A DNA stretch of 15,933 nt from the IMG/VR virus record IMGVR_UViG_2667527666_000007. One strand, 5' to 3'. The number at the start of each line of letters is the position of its first letter. Within the stretch, counting starts at the first letter, position 1. Below, in pieces: positions 6,001 through 15,000 of this stretch. This stretch comes from a virus. Taxonomy: Duplodnaviria > Heunggongvirae > Uroviricota > Caudoviricetes. Made by a program: the position numbers.

Positions 6001-9000
6001 TATCAGGTTATTGCAGACAGCGTAATCAGTGCCCGTGCGGCACGTCCTGGCGGGAACAGACGCAAAACCACAGGCACACAGGGTAATCAGCCACCAGCGG
6101 GAGGCGATGACCCTTACGGTGACGGTATTCCGTTCTGAGGGGGTGGCGATGGTACATGACCGCATAGCGGAAGAACTCGAGGCGAAAGGCTTTTACCGGA
6201 GGGCGGCGGCGCGATGGGGTGAAGTCATGCTGCTGGTGGAGACAGACAAGGAACGGCATCAGGTTACGATGCGACGGCTGGAATGTTCCAGGAAGGCACA
6301 GAGGCCACCGGAGCCGCCGGATAACTTCGGAGACCTGAGAAAGGCAGTAGATCGCACTTATGCTGAAATGGGTATAGATGGTGTAAGCGATGAAATATGG
6401 CGTAATTACCCAGACAGCTAATCAACAGCCGGAGAAATCCGGATTTTTTTGCACCAGTTGAAACGGTATGGCGCATTACCGGGTTTTCGTCACGGTCAGG
6501 CATAGTTACTATCTGAAACAAACAGACACAACAGAGGAAAAAACAATGCCGATGAAATTTGATGAGATATTAAAACAGCGTGATAAATACCATGCTGACA
6601 ACATGGAGACGATGAGCATCAATGATTACCGCGCATTCCTGGAGACGGGCGCACTGATTGAAAAGGATCAGCATGGTTTTGTGAGATGTGCTCTGTCCGG
6701 TGAAATGCTGGCGGTAAATCCTGAACAGATAGATGCATTGATAGAATTTCTGAAAGGGATCAGGGACTGAGCACGCATACAGCCGGAGCAATCCGGCTTT
6801 TTGTCATTTTTTGTAAATTATTTGTTCGTGGTTGTTCCACGTTGTTCACTGACAGGATCGGCATATTTTACCCGAACTGAATCATGAGTATTCTCGCCCG
6901 TGGTGCCAGGACGCTGGGGCCACTTTCCCGCCTGTTAATGTGCTCGCCAATATTCATTACCAGGCGGGAAAACGATCGGTGCGATTACTGATTTCCTTAT
7001 GAAAAACGGTTGAGTGTTTGCCGCGTCCTGGAGTTCCTTACTTAACCCCAGGACTTTTTTTATGCCGAGAATAATCGAATTACGCCAGCAGAAAACCGCC
7101 ATTAAAAATCAGATGCGCGACATGCTGGAGAACGCGGAAAAAGAAAACCGCAGTCTTAACGATGCTGAGGGCGCAAAATTTGACGAATTACGCGCTAAAG
7201 CTGAATCCCTCGATAAAGACATTTCCCGACTTGAAGCCATTGCAGACGAAGAGCGCAGCAAGCCAGGTAAAAGCAGTCAGACCACTGACCCCGCAGAACT
7301 ACGAAACTACATTCTGACGGGTGAAACCCGCGCATTAAGTACAGGCGTTCCCGCTGATGGTGGTTATACCGTTATCCCCGAGCTGAACACCGAAATCATG
7401 CGAATGCTGGCGGATGAATCCACCATGCGCCGCATCTGTACCGTGAAGAAAATCAGCAGCAACGAGTTTAAGCAGCTTGTTTCCGCTGGCGGTGCGACCG
7501 TTAACCACGGTGAAGAGGGTAAGGCACGCGAACAGACCAGCACCCCGCAGATTAACGAGGTGAGCATTAAGCTGTATCCGGTCTATGCGTACCCGCGCAC
7601 CACACAGGAAATCGTGGATTTTTCCGATGTGGACATCCTTTCATGGCTGACGGGTGAGATTGGCGACACCTTCACGGAAACCGAAGAAAGCGATCTGGTT
7701 GTGGGCGACGGTGACAAAAAAGCAAAAGGCTTTTTATCCGTACCCCGTGCAGAGAAGAACGACAAAGAGCGTGATTTTGGTACGTTACAGGTAATTAAAC
7801 CTTCCGAATCTCTGGCGTGGACATCTGCGGACCCGCTGATCGACCTGAAATTTGCATTACGTAAAAAATACCGCAAAAACGCGGTCTGGGTGGTTAACTC
7901 CACGACGGCCGCAAAACTTCAGAAGGTGAAGAACGCGAACGGTGATTACATCTGGCGCGACCGTTTACAGGCGGGTGATCCTGATACGTTGCTGGGCCTT
8001 CCGGTCGAATATCTGGAGTTTATGCCTGATAACGTTATTGCCCTGGGTGACTTCAAACGCGGTTACTACATTGTTGATCACGAAACAGGTGTTCGCACCA
8101 GACCGGACAACCTCACAGAGCCGGGCTTCATCAAAATTTTCACGCAGAAATATTTAGGCGGTGGCGTGGTGGATTCGAACGCGATCAAGATTCTGGAACT
8201 GCCACAGGACGACGATTAACAGCATACAGAAGGGGCTTAAAAGCCCCTTTAGTGTTTTATGGGTGAAAAAATTATGAAGAGTATGGAAATCCGGTCATCG
8301 GAAATCACCACCAGCGCCAGCAACACGCTTACAGGCTACGTTGTTCGCTGGGATAACCTTTCAGAGCTGCTATGGGGGGAGTTTTACGAAAAATTCCAGC
8401 GGGGAGCGTTTACTGAATGGCTTGCAGCGGGTAATGACGTTCGCGGCCTGTATGAGCATGACCACAGCATGTTACTGGGGCGCACCCGTTCCGGCACGCT
8501 GAAACTGGAAGAGGACGACACAGGGTTACGCTTTGAACTGACCCCACCGGATACCAGTACAGGGCGGGACGTTATCGAACTGGTTAAACGAGGTGATATA
8601 TCCGGCATGAGCTTTGGCTTTCGCTCCCGTAAGGATGTATGGGATACCACAACAGATCCATGCGTGCGCACCGTGCTGGTGGCGGAACTGTACGAAATTA
8701 CCGTTACATCCGTACCGGCTTACCATGATTCCGGCGTGGAGCTGGCCCGCCGTTCCCTGTATGAGCAGCACCCCGAAAAAATGCCGCGTGCGGATAATCG
8801 CCGCTGGTGGGCGGATTTAGCGGGGGTGTGATATGTGGCCTTTCAGAAGAAAAAAAGAGCAGCGCAGCATGACGCTTGATGAGTTTATGGCGCTGGCTGG
8901 CACATCGAACACGGGGGCGGGTGAGTACGTATCATCGGGGACAGCGGAATCACTGCCCGCCGTCATGAACGCCGTGACGGTCATCTCTGAGGCGGTGGCT

Positions 9001-12000: not shown

Positions 12001-15000
12001 CACCGGACGGCGCAAATATACGAGCGCCTTTATCGAAGTGCCGCGCAAAAATGCTAAATCAACGACCGCCGCGATTCTGGCTAACTGGTTTCTGATTATG
12101 GAGAACGGTCAGCAGGATATTTACACCGCAGCGGTGAGCCGTGACCAGGCGAGGATCGTATTTGATGATGCGCGTCAGATGTGCATTTTATCCCGACCGT
12201 TACGCAGGCGGGTGAATATTCAGGCGCATAAGGTGATACACCCGAAAACCAACAGCCTGTTAAAGCCGCTGGCAGCAAAAGCGGCAACTATCGAGGGCAC
12301 AAACCCCAGTCTTTCTATCGTGGACGAATACCACCTACACCCCGACAACGGCGTATATTCTGCGCTTGAACTGGGGATGGGGGCACGTCCCGAAGGGCTG
12401 TTATTTGCCATTACCACATCGGGAAGTAACGTCGTTTCAGCCTGTAAGCAGCATTATGATTATTGCTGCCAGATCCTGGACGGCGAAGAGGTTAACGAAT
12501 CGCTTTTTGTGCTGATTTACGAACTGGACGACGAAAACGAGGTTGATGATCCGGAGATGTGGATAAAGGCGAACCCTAATATCGATGTTTCCGTGGATCG
12601 TGAAAAACTGGCCTCAACCATTCAGAAAGCGCGGGGTATTCCGTCGCAATGGGTGGAGATGATGACAAAGCGATTTAATATCTGGTGTCAGGGGACTACC
12701 CCGTGGATGGGTAATGGTGCATGGGCTGAGTGTGCCGGAACGTTCACGGAGGAAGATTTACACGGTCAGGAGTGTTACGCGGGGCTGGACTTATCATCAA
12801 CCAGCGATATTTCCAGCGTGTGCTATGCCTTTCCGGTCGGTAAAACCATTATGCTGATTTCCCGTCATTATCTGCCGGAGTTCCAGCTACAGAACCCCGC
12901 CAATAAAAACCGCGCTGTCTATCGTCAGTGGGCTAAAGCAGGCTGGATACGCACAACGCCTGGCGACTGCATTGATTACGACCGGATCAGAGATGACATC
13001 ATGCAGGACGCGGAGAAATTTAATATCAGGCTGGTGGGCTTTGATACGTGGAACGCCACGCATCTCAGAACGCAATTACAGGGGGCAGGTTTTGAGGTGG
13101 AGCCGTTCCCGCAAACCTACCTCAGATTCAGTCCGGCGGCGAAATCGTTCGAAGTTTTTGTTAACCGCAGGGTGATTGTGCATCGTGGCGATCCGGTGTT
13201 GTCCTGGTCGATGAGTAACGTCGTGATGCAGAGTGACGCGAACGCCAATATCAAGCCGAACAAGAAAAAATCACCGAACAAGATAGACCCGAGCGTGGCG
13301 GCGCTGATGGCGTTTGGTACATTCCAGGCAGAGCATGAGGATTTTGCTTTTGATATAAGCGACAGCCACCGCCAGAAACTGGAAGAATTTAGCGGGGTGT
13401 AATGAGGTCAGCAGCATGACAGAAGCCGAAATAACGGGATTAATCCGCCGCGTTGCCGGAATCAGCCAGCAGGCTGACGAACAGGCCACGCAGCCGGACA
13501 GCGTGACAGCCGAAAACTATGCGCGTGTTGTTGCTGAGGTGATGCGCCGTGATGGTATAGAACTTAATGGCGTGGATATGCGCAACATACGAACCAGAGT
13601 TCTTGAGTTGCTGGCCTACCGTCGCCGCGTGGAGATGTATCGGGAGAAGGAGAAAATAACGTACCACTGGAAGAAGCCGGAGCGGTTGCGGCGGTAACTG
13701 GTTGATATTCCCGACGGCCCAAAAATGGGTGGCTACATCCCTCGCTTCTGAGGACTGTTAACAAGCTGCCTGAAAGACAGTCACAAACTACGAAATTTTC
13801 GCAGTTTAACTAATGGTCAGCTTAATCGCTAACCCGCTGATATTTTCGGAAACCTCAATTTGAGGAAGTCGTCGCGGTAACTCGCTGAACTTTAAGCAAA
13901 GCGCAAAATTGCGCTTGCTGAATAATCATTATGATTACGCAGATGATTAAGGAATGACCGAAGGCGGAAATTCGCCTGTGGTTAATGGGGGAGTTGCAGA
14001 TCTGCAACTCGACCATGAAACTACGGAAACTACCCGTAGTTTGGGTAGTAAGAGTAACACCCAGATTTTGGGGCTTACTCGTGATACCCAAATTTGGGGT
14101 ATCGGTGGCAACCATAACGACTTTCGTTACGGTTGATGCTTTTACCCCATTGGGGGAAAGGTATTACGATAATCATAACACCTACCGAACAGGTAAAGCC
14201 CACCAGCCTGATTAACGTTTAACCGGAAAAAAATCCAGGTAGGTGGAGATCCCCATATCGACAGCAACGCCCCTCATGAATTGGCGTGCTTCCCCCTGGA
14301 AAGATGACCCGCCTGTATATTTCTTGTGTCTATTTGTTCCACGTTGTTTCATACAGTGCACCGAACGGTGTAGTCAATGGTGTAGTTAATTTGCGATTTT
14401 TGGCACTTTTTGCAGTGTTAATTATTTAATTAAATCAATGCCTTATCTTAATTTGGTGATAAAAGGGCATATTTATTCATCTTTCGGCGCAGAATGCTGG
14501 CGACCAAAAATCACCTCCATCCGCGCACCGCCCAGCATGCTCTCTCCGGCGACGATTTTACCCTCATATTGCTCGGTGATTTCGCGGGCTACCGCCAGCC
14601 CTACACCTTGCCCAGGGCGTAAAGTATCAACCCGTTGACCACGGTCGAAAATGACCTCTCGCTTGCTTAATGGAATACCGGGGCCATCATCCTCGACCAC
14701 AATATAGAGATGCTCGTCGGTTTGCCTTGCAGAAATTTCGACAAACTCGAGGCAATATTTACAGGCATTATCCAGCACGTTGCCCATCACCTCGACAAAA
14801 TCGTTCTGCTCACCGACAAAGCTGATCTCTGGCGAAATATCGAGAGAGATATTGACCCCTTTGCGTTGATACACTTTGTTCAGCGCTGAGGTGAGATTGT
14901 CCAGCAGTGGGGCGACCGGATGCAGCTCGCGGCTGAGCAATGTCCCGCCGCGCATACTGGCACGATGCAGGTAGTAGCCAATTTGCTGTGAAATGCGGCT

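What the first reader, a model, noticed from the sequence alone, without database searches (positions are those of the whole stretch)
7062..13402. Head/packaging genes in inverted order relative to HK97-type phages, with no separate scaffold gene
Phages of this type typically run TerS-TerL-portal-protease-capsid-connectors. Here the order is capsid-protease-portal-connectors-HNH-TerS-TerL, with overlapping stop/start codons (10041, 10376, 10672, 11741) indicating one translationally coupled operon. Scaffold function appears to come from the capsid delta domain. This order is a diagnostic signature separating these satellites from prophage remnants, and a terminator-like hairpin at 8231-8258 after the capsid gene may set capsid-to-partner stoichiometry.
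Basis: partly seen in the sequence, partly recalled or inferred. Interest (0 to 1): 0.5.

Follow-up and report, generated by a model that had tools for sequence, protein, structure and literature searches.

The report
Capsid-forming satellite's reordered packaging operon
This is the head-building and DNA-packaging gene block of a capsid-forming phage satellite (cf-PICI) nearly identical to the well-studied EcCIEDL933 of E. coli O157:H7; its capsid-first gene order is real but was already published, so the finding is correct and ordinary.

Summary
Window 7062-13402 encodes, on the + strand, major capsid, prohead protease, portal, head-closure (Hc1), head-tail adaptor (Ad1), HNH, a 60-aa ORF, TerS and TerL. 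All have strong Pfam/PHROG matches, and the start/stop overlaps are at 10041, 10376, 10672 and 11741. The capsid differs at 2 of 385 residues from PDB 9gyi. The module is 98-99% identical to the island in E. coli O157:H7 genomes. int, alpA and a primase lie upstream, and there are no tail or lysis genes, so this is an EcCIEDL933-type cf-PICI.

The founding cf-PICI paper already describes this order (capsid-protease-portal-connectors, then hnh-terS-terL) for Proteobacteria. Four qualifications apply:
- HNH-TerS-TerL matches circularised HK97. Only the head genes and the two connector genes are reversed.
- HK97 also lacks a separate scaffold gene.
- Firmicute cf-PICIs use other orders.
- The module is split by two untranslated gaps.

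The hairpin at 8229-8250 is real (dG about -15 to -17 kcal/mol, z -3.6). It is conserved after the capsid gene in every cf-PICI relative examined. It also follows the capsid gene in HK97, ST64B and YeP1, so it is not satellite-specific, and its role in stoichiometry is untested. Novelty: already known.

The parts
7062..8219 (+). Major capsid protein (HK97 fold). Residues 1-92 form the delta (scaffolding) domain, and the mature protein starts at S93 (STGVPAD).
   Evidence: PF05065 E 1.7e-61, phrog_10. It differs at 2 of 385 residues from PDB 9gyi, and the O157:H7 copy matches 9gyi at both of those positions. The cleavage motif and T=4 capsid are described in the preprint read.
8229..8258 (+). 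GC-rich hairpin (stem 8229/8230-8250, loop AAAA) with an interrupted U-tract. It is terminator-like.
   Evidence: Best terminator-like site in the window. z -3.57 against shuffles. A hairpin sits at the same position in all cf-PICI relatives, about 17 distinct spacer variants from at least 7 genera, and also in HK97, ST64B and YeP1.
8259..8831 (+). HK97-family prohead serine protease (S78). The conserved start is more likely ATG 8274, with a GGTGA Shine-Dalgarno at 8262-8266.
   Evidence: PF04586 E 6e-48, phrog_80. The first ATG is missing or out of frame in L021, L003 and L014.
8833..10044 (+). Portal protein
   Evidence: PF04860 E 1e-90, phrog_12 E 4.5e-116.
10041..10379 (+). Head closure protein Hc1, like HK97 gp7 (called 'adaptor' in the cf-PICI papers). 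It is the tail-facing protein.
   Evidence: PF05521, phrog_25. It is 50% identical to HK97 gp7, E 4e-41. It is the most divergent gene among cf-PICI relatives.
10376..10672 (+). Head-tail adaptor Ad1, like HK97 gp6 (called 'connector' in the cf-PICI papers).
   Evidence: PF05135, phrog_40. It is 22% identical to HK97 gp6, E 5e-5.
10672..11112 (+). HNH endonuclease, the packaging accessory of HK97-type cos terminases.
   Evidence: PF01844 E 1.2e-8, phrog_144 E 9e-45.
11096..11278 (+). 60-aa ORF of unknown function that overlaps the end of the HNH gene.
   Evidence: phrog_3173. It is annotated as a hypothetical protein in RefSeq copies and is conserved in relatives.
11279..11400 (.). Conserved non-coding spacer between HNH/orf60 and TerS. 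It has a G-run, a C-run and a CAAATTTTTAYGCAC motif. It is the putative cos site (inferred).
   Evidence: Sequence blocks are conserved from Escherichia to Pasteurella. The position equals that of cos in HK97, between HNH and TerS. The ends of the linear record LR881103.1 fall inside it. It is deleted in a Shigella copy.
11401..11757 (+). Terminase small subunit (P27 family)
   Evidence: PF05119 E 4e-24, phrog_83.
11741..13402 (+). Terminase large subunit. It has a TTG start that overlaps TerS by 17 nt.
   Evidence: PF03354 plus PF20441, phrog_9 E 5e-180. It is the only start candidate, with a GAGGA Shine-Dalgarno.
13416..13697 (+). 93-aa ORF of unknown function that trails TerL.
   Evidence: phrog_1561 E 3e-56.
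6781..7061 (+). Upstream boundary and leader of the packaging module. It contains an intrinsic terminator (6781-6798), a conserved box TTGTAAATTATTTGT (6811-6825), a 22-nt repeat (6825-6846), and a hairpin (7025-7054) plus T7 that abuts the capsid ATG.

Best explanation
Window 7062-13402 is the packaging module of a capsid-forming phage-inducible chromosomal island (cf-PICI) of the EcCIEDL933 type. The island runs from int at position 1 to about 14438 and sits next to phoQ.

From published work on the near-identical EcCIEDL933, the module works as follows. It builds its own small T=4 HK97-fold capsid. The capsid protein's N-terminal delta domain acts as the scaffold and is removed by the S78 protease. 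The portal, Ad1 and Hc1 complete a tail-less head. HNH, TerS and TerL cut and package island DNA at the island's own cos site. I infer that cos lies in the conserved spacer 11279-11400. The head then joins a tail stolen from a helper phage such as HK106.

The gene order is the published proteobacterial cf-PICI order: capsid, protease, portal, Hc1, Ad1, HNH, TerS, TerL. Relative to HK97, the HNH-cos-TerS-TerL junction is unchanged. The morphogenesis genes sit upstream of HNH instead of downstream of TerL. Within them, capsid/protease/portal and Hc1/Ad1 run in the reverse sequence on the same strand.

Transcription probably starts in or upstream of the leader at 6800-7061 and reads through the whole block (inferred). 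The block consists of three tightly coupled translation groups separated by the post-capsid hairpin and by the cos spacer. The hairpin is an inherited feature of HK97-type capsid genes. It most likely acts as a leaky terminator or a 3' mRNA stabiliser that favours capsid message over downstream genes (inferred, about 40% confidence).
For: - **Family assignments.** All nine genes have strong matches.
- **Identity to known elements.** The capsid differs at 2 of 385 residues from solved structure 9gyi, and the O157:H7 copy matches 9gyi at both positions. The module is 98.3-98.9% identical over 6.7 kb to islands in 413 E. coli genomes, including O157:H7.
- **Island context.** int, AlpA, a D5-type primase, SSB and PerC lie upstream. 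There are no tail or lysis genes.
- **Published order.** The order for proteobacterial cf-PICIs and the essentiality of the packaging genes are in the founding preprint. The same order appears in the later list of defining features.
- **Capsid biology.** T=4 symmetry, proteolytic maturation and the SxGxxAD motif are published.
- **HK97 reference order.** The order, the terminal HNH gene and the putative terminator after gp5 come from the HK97 record.
- **Survey.** About 57 loci with capsid identity of 58% or more (about 17 distinct variants) have the capsid-first order. All comparators with 40% or less have portal first.
- **Hairpin.** Stability and positional conservation are shown.
- **No internal promoter.** No sigma-70-like promoter is found on the + strand between 6800 and 13400.
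- **cos spacer.** It is conserved across genera.
Against: - Nothing contradicts the cf-PICI identification.
- The mechanistic extras remain unproven. The cos position is inferred and not mapped. The LR881103.1 record ends inside the spacer but lacks about 60 nt, so it may have been trimmed or re-oriented.
- The hairpin core GGGGC/GCCCC is nearly invariant among cf-PICIs, so there is almost no covariation to prove an RNA-level function.
- Its U-tract is interrupted.
- The hairpin also exists in phages where the capsid gene is fifth in the operon. The capsid-first order is therefore not needed to explain it.
- The promoter of the module was not found.
Confidence: 0.93

Rival explanations
1. The block is a decayed HK97-type prophage remnant that has lost its tail and lysis genes and been scrambled, not a functional satellite.
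For: The proteins belong to ordinary phage families. No tail or lysis genes are present.
Against: - All nine ORFs are intact and tightly coupled.
- The same order and content recur at 58-100% capsid identity across at least 7 genera and in 413 E. coli genomes. That indicates selection, not decay.
- The element carries its own int, alpA and primase module, and matches in other chromosomal contexts end at about window position 14438, giving a compact island of roughly 14.4 kb.
- The near-identical EcCIEDL933 was shown experimentally to make capsids and to transfer.
- A truly damaged copy looks different. The Shigella copy has a 98-nt deletion that removes the spacer and the TerS start.
Confidence: 0.03
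2. The hairpin at 8229-8250 is not a stoichiometry valve. It is a genuine terminator, one of several that include the hairpin plus T7 just before the capsid ATG. These keep the module silent until a processive antiterminator lets RNA polymerase read through everything. The antiterminator could be the island's AlpA or a helper-phage Q-like factor.
For: - The HK97 late operon is sprinkled with annotated putative terminators, after the portal, capsid and tail genes. As established knowledge not tested here, lambdoid late operons, and by extension HK97's, are read by Q-antiterminated RNA polymerase.
- The island encodes a PF05930 AlpA protein. The P. aeruginosa protein called AlpA is a DNA-loaded processive antiterminator (PMC7969949 and PMC9371919, abstracts listed). 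I did not test its Pfam family or its relatedness to this protein.
- A terminator-like hairpin (7025-7054) followed by T7 abuts the capsid start codon, within a leader that folds with z -4.45.
- A 22-nt exact repeat is shared between the int-alpA spacer and the capsid leader.
Against: - There is no evidence that E. coli-type PICI AlpA acts as an antiterminator. No AlpA-binding element or qut-like site was identified.
- The int-proximal repeat copy is absent from most relatives.
- The two models are not mutually exclusive.
Confidence: 0.25
3. The hairpin has no regulatory role in the satellite. It is a passively inherited gene-boundary or mRNA 3'-stabiliser element that travelled with the capsid gene from the phage ancestor.
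For: The same kind of hairpin sits after the capsid gene in HK97, ST64B and YeP1, whose operons have the opposite order. The stem core is conserved as sequence, with almost no compensatory change.
Against: - It is retained within 4-14 nt of the stop codon in about 17 distinct spacer variants, while loops and flanks diverge: AAAA, UUCG, GGUG and UAUAU loops, and one A-U to C-G swap in Erwinia.
- A purely neutral relic would be expected to decay.
- Only one copy (L059) has a weakened stem.
Confidence: 0.3

Closest known systems
cf-PICI EcCIEDL933 (E. coli O157:H7 EDL933), the prototype capsid-forming PICI
   Same: - It has the same nine packaging genes in the same order with the same overlaps.
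- The packaging module (window 7000-13700) is 98.3% identical to O157:H7 copies, and the capsid differs at 2 of 385 residues.
- The primase, SSB and PerC region is the same.
   Different: - The integrase is a different allele (90% identity).
- The integration site differs: next to phoQ here, inside tqsA in the O157:H7 copy.
- The region between int and the primase differs.
Phage HK97 head and packaging genes (gp1-gp7 plus gp74 HNH)
   Same: - It has the same protein families, including the P27-type TerS, the HNH accessory and the S78 protease.
- The capsid carries an N-terminal delta domain, and there is no separate scaffold gene.
- HNH is adjacent to TerS-TerL across cos.
- A hairpin lies immediately after the capsid gene.
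- Hc1 is 50% identical to gp7.
   Different: - The HK97 order is TerS-TerL-portal-protease-MCP-Ad1-Hc1. Here it is MCP-protease-portal-Hc1-Ad1, placed before HNH.
- The capsid sequence is not detectably similar by BLASTP (E 0.088).
- The capsid is T=4 rather than T=7, and it has no covalent crosslinks (preprint).
- There are no tail or lysis genes here.
Other proteobacterial cf-PICIs. The cf-PICI papers describe KpCIDSM30104 and EcCIGN02175. Similar elements are deposited as 'Escherichia phage vB_KppS-Ant' (LR881103.1) and 'Pasteurella phage Pmp8' (OR544139.1). Further islands occur in Citrobacter, Erwinia, Gilliamella and Rosenbergiella.
   Same: They share the gene order, the post-capsid hairpin and the conserved HNH-TerS spacer motifs.
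   Different: - Capsid identity is 58-74%.
- Hc1 identity is only 36-46%, consistent with a tail-specificity cassette.
- The capsid leader is different but is itself conserved among these relatives.
Classical Gram-negative PICIs (EcCICFT073, EcCIED1a)
   Same: They share the int-alpA-primase left half and dependence on a helper phage (preprint).
   Different: Classical PICIs have no capsid, portal, connector or TerL genes. They remodel or redirect helper proteins instead.
Firmicute cf-PICIs
   Same: They have the same gene content and lifestyle.
   Different: They use different orders: portal-protease-capsid first, or HNH-TerS-TerL first. They are thought to have arisen independently.

Membership tests
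cf-PICI (capsid-forming PICI) | Size of roughly 10-18 kb | tested here: met
   The island runs from int at position 1 to about 14438, where similarity to copies at other chromosomal sites ends. phoQ begins at 14473.
cf-PICI (capsid-forming PICI) | An integrase plus regulation and replication modules of PICI type | tested here: met
   A tyrosine integrase lies at 1-1230, AlpA (PF05930) at 1515-1784, and a D5-type primase at 3366-5198.
cf-PICI (capsid-forming PICI) | [quoted passage not shown] | tested here: met
   All eight have significant Pfam and PHROG hits and intact ORFs.
cf-PICI (capsid-forming PICI) | The proteobacterial gene organisation: morphogenetic genes first, then hnh-terS-terL | tested here: met
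   The order was read from the coordinates. It matches the description in the founding preprint and the O157:H7 annotation.
cf-PICI (capsid-forming PICI) | Absence of tail and lysis genes | tested here: met
   No ORF in the window hits a tail, holin or endolysin family. After TerL there is only a 93-aa ORF of unknown function.
cf-PICI (capsid-forming PICI) | Helper-phage induction, formation of small island-encoded capsids, and tail hijacking | not testable with these tools
   This was shown experimentally for EcCIEDL933. It is inferred here from 98-99% identity of the module.
HK97-type tailed phage or intact prophage | Head module followed by tail and lysis modules, in the canonical TerS-TerL-portal-protease-capsid order | tested here: not met
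   The order is different and no tail or lysis genes are present.
HK97-type capsid assembly (delta-domain scaffolding) | An N-terminal delta domain of about 100 aa removed by an S78 protease, with no separate scaffold gene | tested here: met
   Residues 1-92 are helix-former and charged-residue rich (64% AELKRDQ, against 45% in the mature part). The SxGxxAD motif lies at 93-99. The Pfam capsid domain starts near residue 100. The protease gene is adjacent. Cleavage was seen in the cryo-EM study.

The most novel reading that the evidence does not exclude
The capsid-first order combined with the conserved leaky hairpin could be a transcriptional polarity device. Genes would then be arranged in descending order of copy number per particle: about 235 capsid proteins, then tens of protease molecules, then 12 each of portal, Hc1 and Ad1, then the catalytic HNH and terminase. 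Alternatively, the module could be gated by AlpA-type processive antitermination. That would act through the structured leader (6800-7061, with a hairpin plus T7 abutting the capsid ATG) and the post-capsid terminator. Neither mechanism is mentioned in the two cf-PICI preprints I searched: 'terminator' and 'promoter' have zero hits in either.
Probability: 0.2. Interest if true: 0.4.

Novelty: already known. Interest (0 to 1): 0.12.

Why it matters
cf-PICIs are a widespread satellite family. SatelliteFinder reported them in 13% of Enterobacteriaceae genomes. Recognising this block stops it from being annotated as a defective prophage or even as a phage. Three GenBank 'phage' records turned out to be, or to contain, cf-PICIs.

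The gene order itself adds nothing new. The small residual value lies in cis elements that are not discussed in the two preprints I searched:
- the post-capsid hairpin, shared with HK97-type phages;
- the conserved HNH-TerS spacer, a likely cos site;
- the structured capsid leader.

Each of these could be tested as a regulator of capsid expression or of packaging specificity.

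Tried and rejected
- **Covariation test of the hairpin.** The GGGGC/GCCCC core is invariant in the 8 aligned cf-PICIs and only one base pair shows a compensatory change. The test is uninformative, so I relied on positional conservation and on the different stems in HK97, ST64B and YeP1.
- **Linear 'phage' records as cos maps.** LR881103.1 starts 22 nt before TerS and ends 37 nt after orf60, but it lacks about 60 nt of the spacer seen in relatives. PQ569648.1 simply ends inside orf60, and its TerS copy is truncated. 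Both were rejected as proof of cos ends.
- **PQ569648.1 (106.5 kb) as a possible true phage with the capsid-first order.** All 13 features in the 18-kb stretch I read are labelled hypothetical, and the cf-PICI part sits at the contig end with int and a primase. It is most likely a chimeric or chromosomal assembly, not a counter-example.
- **Rfam gathering scan of the window.** It found no known RNA family.
- **BLASTP of the capsid against HK97 gp5.** The result was not significant (E 0.088). The HK97 fold rests on Pfam, on PDB 9gyi and on the published overlay instead.
- **Sigma-70 scan.** No promoter was found for the module, so the promoter remains unidentified.
- **Large IMG/VR contigs (44-62 kb) holding the module.** In each, int and a primase sit directly upstream of the capsid gene, as in a stand-alone island. 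I did not scan their flanks for tail genes.

Full report
**Observation**

The + strand of 7062-13402 carries a compact row of ORFs. Pfam and PHROG scans give unambiguous assignments:
- major capsid protein, 7062-8219 (PF05065, E 1.7e-61);
- HK97-family prohead protease, 8259-8831 (PF04586);
- portal, 8833-10044 (PF04860, E 1e-90);
- head closure protein Hc1, 10041-10379 (PF05521, phrog_25);
- head-tail adaptor Ad1, 10376-10672 (PF05135, phrog_40);
- HNH endonuclease, 10672-11112;
- a 60-aa ORF, 11096-11278;
- P27-type TerS, 11401-11757 (PF05119);
- TerL, 11741-13402 (ATPase and nuclease domains);
- a 93-aa ORF of unknown function, 13416-13697.

There is an ATGA overlap at 10041 and another at 10376, and a TGATG overlap at 10672. 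TerL starts with TTG at 11741, 17 nt inside TerS, behind a GAGGA Shine-Dalgarno. Two further tight junctions exist: protease/portal with a 1-nt gap, and HNH/orf60 with a 17-nt overlap.

Two untranslated gaps break the string. The first lies between capsid and protease and holds the hairpin. It is 39 nt long, or 54 nt if the protease starts at 8274. The second is 122 nt, between orf60 and TerS.

**What the element is**

The upstream genes are a tyrosine integrase (1-1230), AlpA (1515-1784), a D5-type primase (3366-5198), SSB and a PerC-family regulator. No tail or lysis genes are present, and phoQ flanks the right end.

The 6.7-kb module is 98.3-98.9% identical to islands in E. coli. 413 genomes carry at least 80% of it, including O157:H7 strains, where RefSeq annotates the same genes in the same order.

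The capsid protein differs at 2 of 385 residues from PDB entry 9gyi. The O157:H7 copy matches 9gyi at both positions. Entry 9gyi fits the cryo-EM structure of the EcCIEDL933 capsid described in the 2025 preprint.

The window therefore holds an EcCIEDL933-type capsid-forming PICI. It has a different integrase allele and a different insertion site.

**The order is already published**

[quoted passage not shown] It also says that the island and helper packaging modules 'have different genetic organisations'.

The later preprint lists the same series among the features that define cf-PICIs. The finding is therefore a correct rediscovery.

**Synteny comparison**

The HK97 record gives the reference order: TerS, TerL, portal, protease, MCP, Ad1 (gp6), Hc1 (gp7), then the tail genes. 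HNH is the last gene before the right end. ST64B and YeP1 have the same head order.

Three points follow.
1. HNH-spacer-TerS-TerL in the island is the native HK97 arrangement once the phage genome is circularised. It is not inverted.
2. The true rearrangement is that the morphogenesis genes lie upstream of HNH, and that two sub-blocks run in the reverse sequence: MCP-protease-portal instead of portal-protease-MCP, and Hc1-Ad1 instead of Ad1-Hc1.
3. All genes keep one strand, so this is gene-by-gene reordering and not a DNA inversion.

In a survey of 78 fetched loci and records, every locus complete enough to judge with capsid identity of 58% or more has the island order. These number about 57, though most are near-identical copies, so they amount to about 17 distinct variants. 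They come from Escherichia, Shigella, Citrobacter, Erwinia, Gilliamella, Rosenbergiella, Klebsiella and Pasteurella. Every comparator with capsid identity of 40% or less that could be ordered has portal before capsid.

The order is thus a good marker within Proteobacteria. It is not a marker across all cf-PICIs, because Firmicute cf-PICIs have two other orders. Published detection tools use gene content and the absence of tail and holin genes, not gene order.

**Scaffold**

No scaffold-family ORF is present. Capsid residues 1-92 are rich in helix-forming and charged residues. They end just before STGVPAD (93-99), which matches the SxGxxAD motif that the cryo-EM study places at the mature N-terminus. 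The Pfam capsid domain begins near residue 100.

The delta-domain reading is supported. HK97 has the same arrangement, so this is a shared feature and not a contrast.

**Hairpin**

The stem at 8229/8230-8250 is followed by UUUAGUGUUUUAUG. It is the best terminator-like site in the window. It folds at -15 to -17 kcal/mol, with z -3.57 against shuffles.

A GC-rich hairpin lies 4-14 nt after the capsid stop codon in all cf-PICI relatives, in about 17 distinct spacer variants. The loops vary (AAAA, UUCG, GGUG, UAUAU). One compensatory A-U to C-G change occurs in Erwinia, and only one copy has a weakened stem. The stem core is invariant, so covariation cannot establish function.

Hairpins also follow the capsid gene in HK97, ST64B and YeP1. 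The HK97 record annotates its hairpin as a putative terminator. The feature therefore belongs to HK97-type capsid genes in general and is not specific to the satellite.

The downstream genes are essential for transfer, and no promoter-like site follows the hairpin. Termination can therefore be at most partial, or it must be overridden.

Three readings remain open:
- a real terminator bypassed by processive antitermination;
- a passively inherited relic.

The antitermination reading rests on two leads. The island encodes an AlpA protein, and the P. aeruginosa protein called AlpA is an antiterminator. I did not test whether the two proteins are related. A second terminator-like hairpin plus T7 abuts the capsid ATG. 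None of the three readings can be decided from sequence alone.

**cos**

The 122-nt spacer at 11279-11400 keeps blocks of sequence from Escherichia to Pasteurella: GGGGTGGGGG..TTTTCAGGAC, then a C-run, then CAAATTTTTAYGCAC..ATTTTTT. This conservation holds even though the flanking proteins are only 53-75% identical.

It occupies the position of cos in HK97, between HNH and TerS. The ends of the linear record LR881103.1 fall inside it, although that record lacks about 60 nt and may have been trimmed. A Shigella copy has lost the spacer together with the TerS start. I infer that this spacer is the island's cos site. It has not been mapped.

**Verdict**

The content is already in the literature. 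Novelty is 'already known' and interest is low.

The useful additions are:
- the exact description of what is and is not rearranged;
- the correction that the hairpin and the scaffold-less design are shared with HK97;
- a probable protease start at 8274;
- several cis elements worth testing experimentally.

Noticed in passing
window 1298-1319 (-) and 6825-6846 (+): A 22-nt exact inverted repeat, TTCGTGGTTGTTCCACGTTGTT, contains TTGTT(C) iterons. One copy lies in the int-alpA spacer and the other about 235 nt upstream of the capsid ATG. None is expected by chance. The capsid-proximal copy is present in all 33 fetched loci that match the 20-nt core exactly. The int-proximal copy is found in only two of them. 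It may be a shared regulator-binding site.
   Followed up: partly
window 6781-7061: A strong intrinsic terminator (6781-6798) closes the upstream operon. It is followed by a box, TTGTAAATTATTTGT (6811-6825), that is conserved upstream of the capsid gene in Rosenbergiella, Citrobacter, Erwinia and Klebsiella relatives. The 270-nt leader folds with z -4.45. A hairpin (7025-7031 paired with 7048-7054) plus T7 abuts the capsid ATG and buries the AGGA Shine-Dalgarno. No promoter was identified.
   Followed up: partly
window 8259-8276: The protease start is more likely ATG 8274, with a GGTGA Shine-Dalgarno at 8262-8266, than the RefSeq-style start at 8259. The first ATG is replaced (L021) or out of frame (L003, L014) in relatives, whereas the second ATG with its GGAG/GGTG motif is conserved.
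   Followed up: partly
window 10041-10379: Hc1 is 50% identical over its full length to HK97 gp7 (E 4e-41), whereas the capsid is not detectably similar to HK97 gp5 by BLASTP. Among cf-PICI relatives Hc1 is the most divergent packaging gene, at 36-46% against 58-82% for its neighbours. This fits the published finding that these two small genes set tail compatibility.
   Followed up: yes
window 11279-11400: This non-coding spacer has sequence blocks conserved from Escherichia to Pasteurella. It is the likely cos site of the island but has not been mapped.
   Followed up: partly
L002 (Shigella flexneri CP182556.1), about 12260: A 98-nt deletion between short CCCCGCC repeats removes most of the HNH-TerS spacer and the first TerS codons. 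This copy is probably packaging-defective.
   Followed up: yes
L014 (LR881103.1), L015 (OR544139.1), L020 (PQ569648.1 88271-106503): Three GenBank 'phage' records are, or contain, cf-PICIs: 'Escherichia phage vB_KppS-Ant' (16.5 kb), 'Pasteurella phage Pmp8' (15.3 kb), and the last roughly 16 kb of the 106.5-kb 'Klebsiella phage P12620-1'. In the Ant record the gene after TerL is annotated as a tape measure protein. I did not check that annotation.
   Followed up: partly
L005 (Erwinia psidii) 14256-14342: A P1/P7-type C4 antisense RNA (Rfam RF01695, 86.5 bits) lies just downstream of TerL in the Erwinia cf-PICI. It may be an accessory or anti-phage cargo.
   Followed up: no
window 5728-6421: An SSB gene (5728-6138) and a PerC-family transcriptional regulator (RefSeq-equivalent 6149-6421) sit upstream of the packaging module, separated from it by one small ORF (6468-6770). 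The PerC homologue is a candidate activator of the module, but this was not tested.
   Followed up: no
L010 and L012 (Bartonella MAGs): These distant relatives show a third arrangement: portal-capsid-HNH, then about 2 kb, then TerS-TerL. No separate protease hit was found. I did not investigate further.
   Followed up: no
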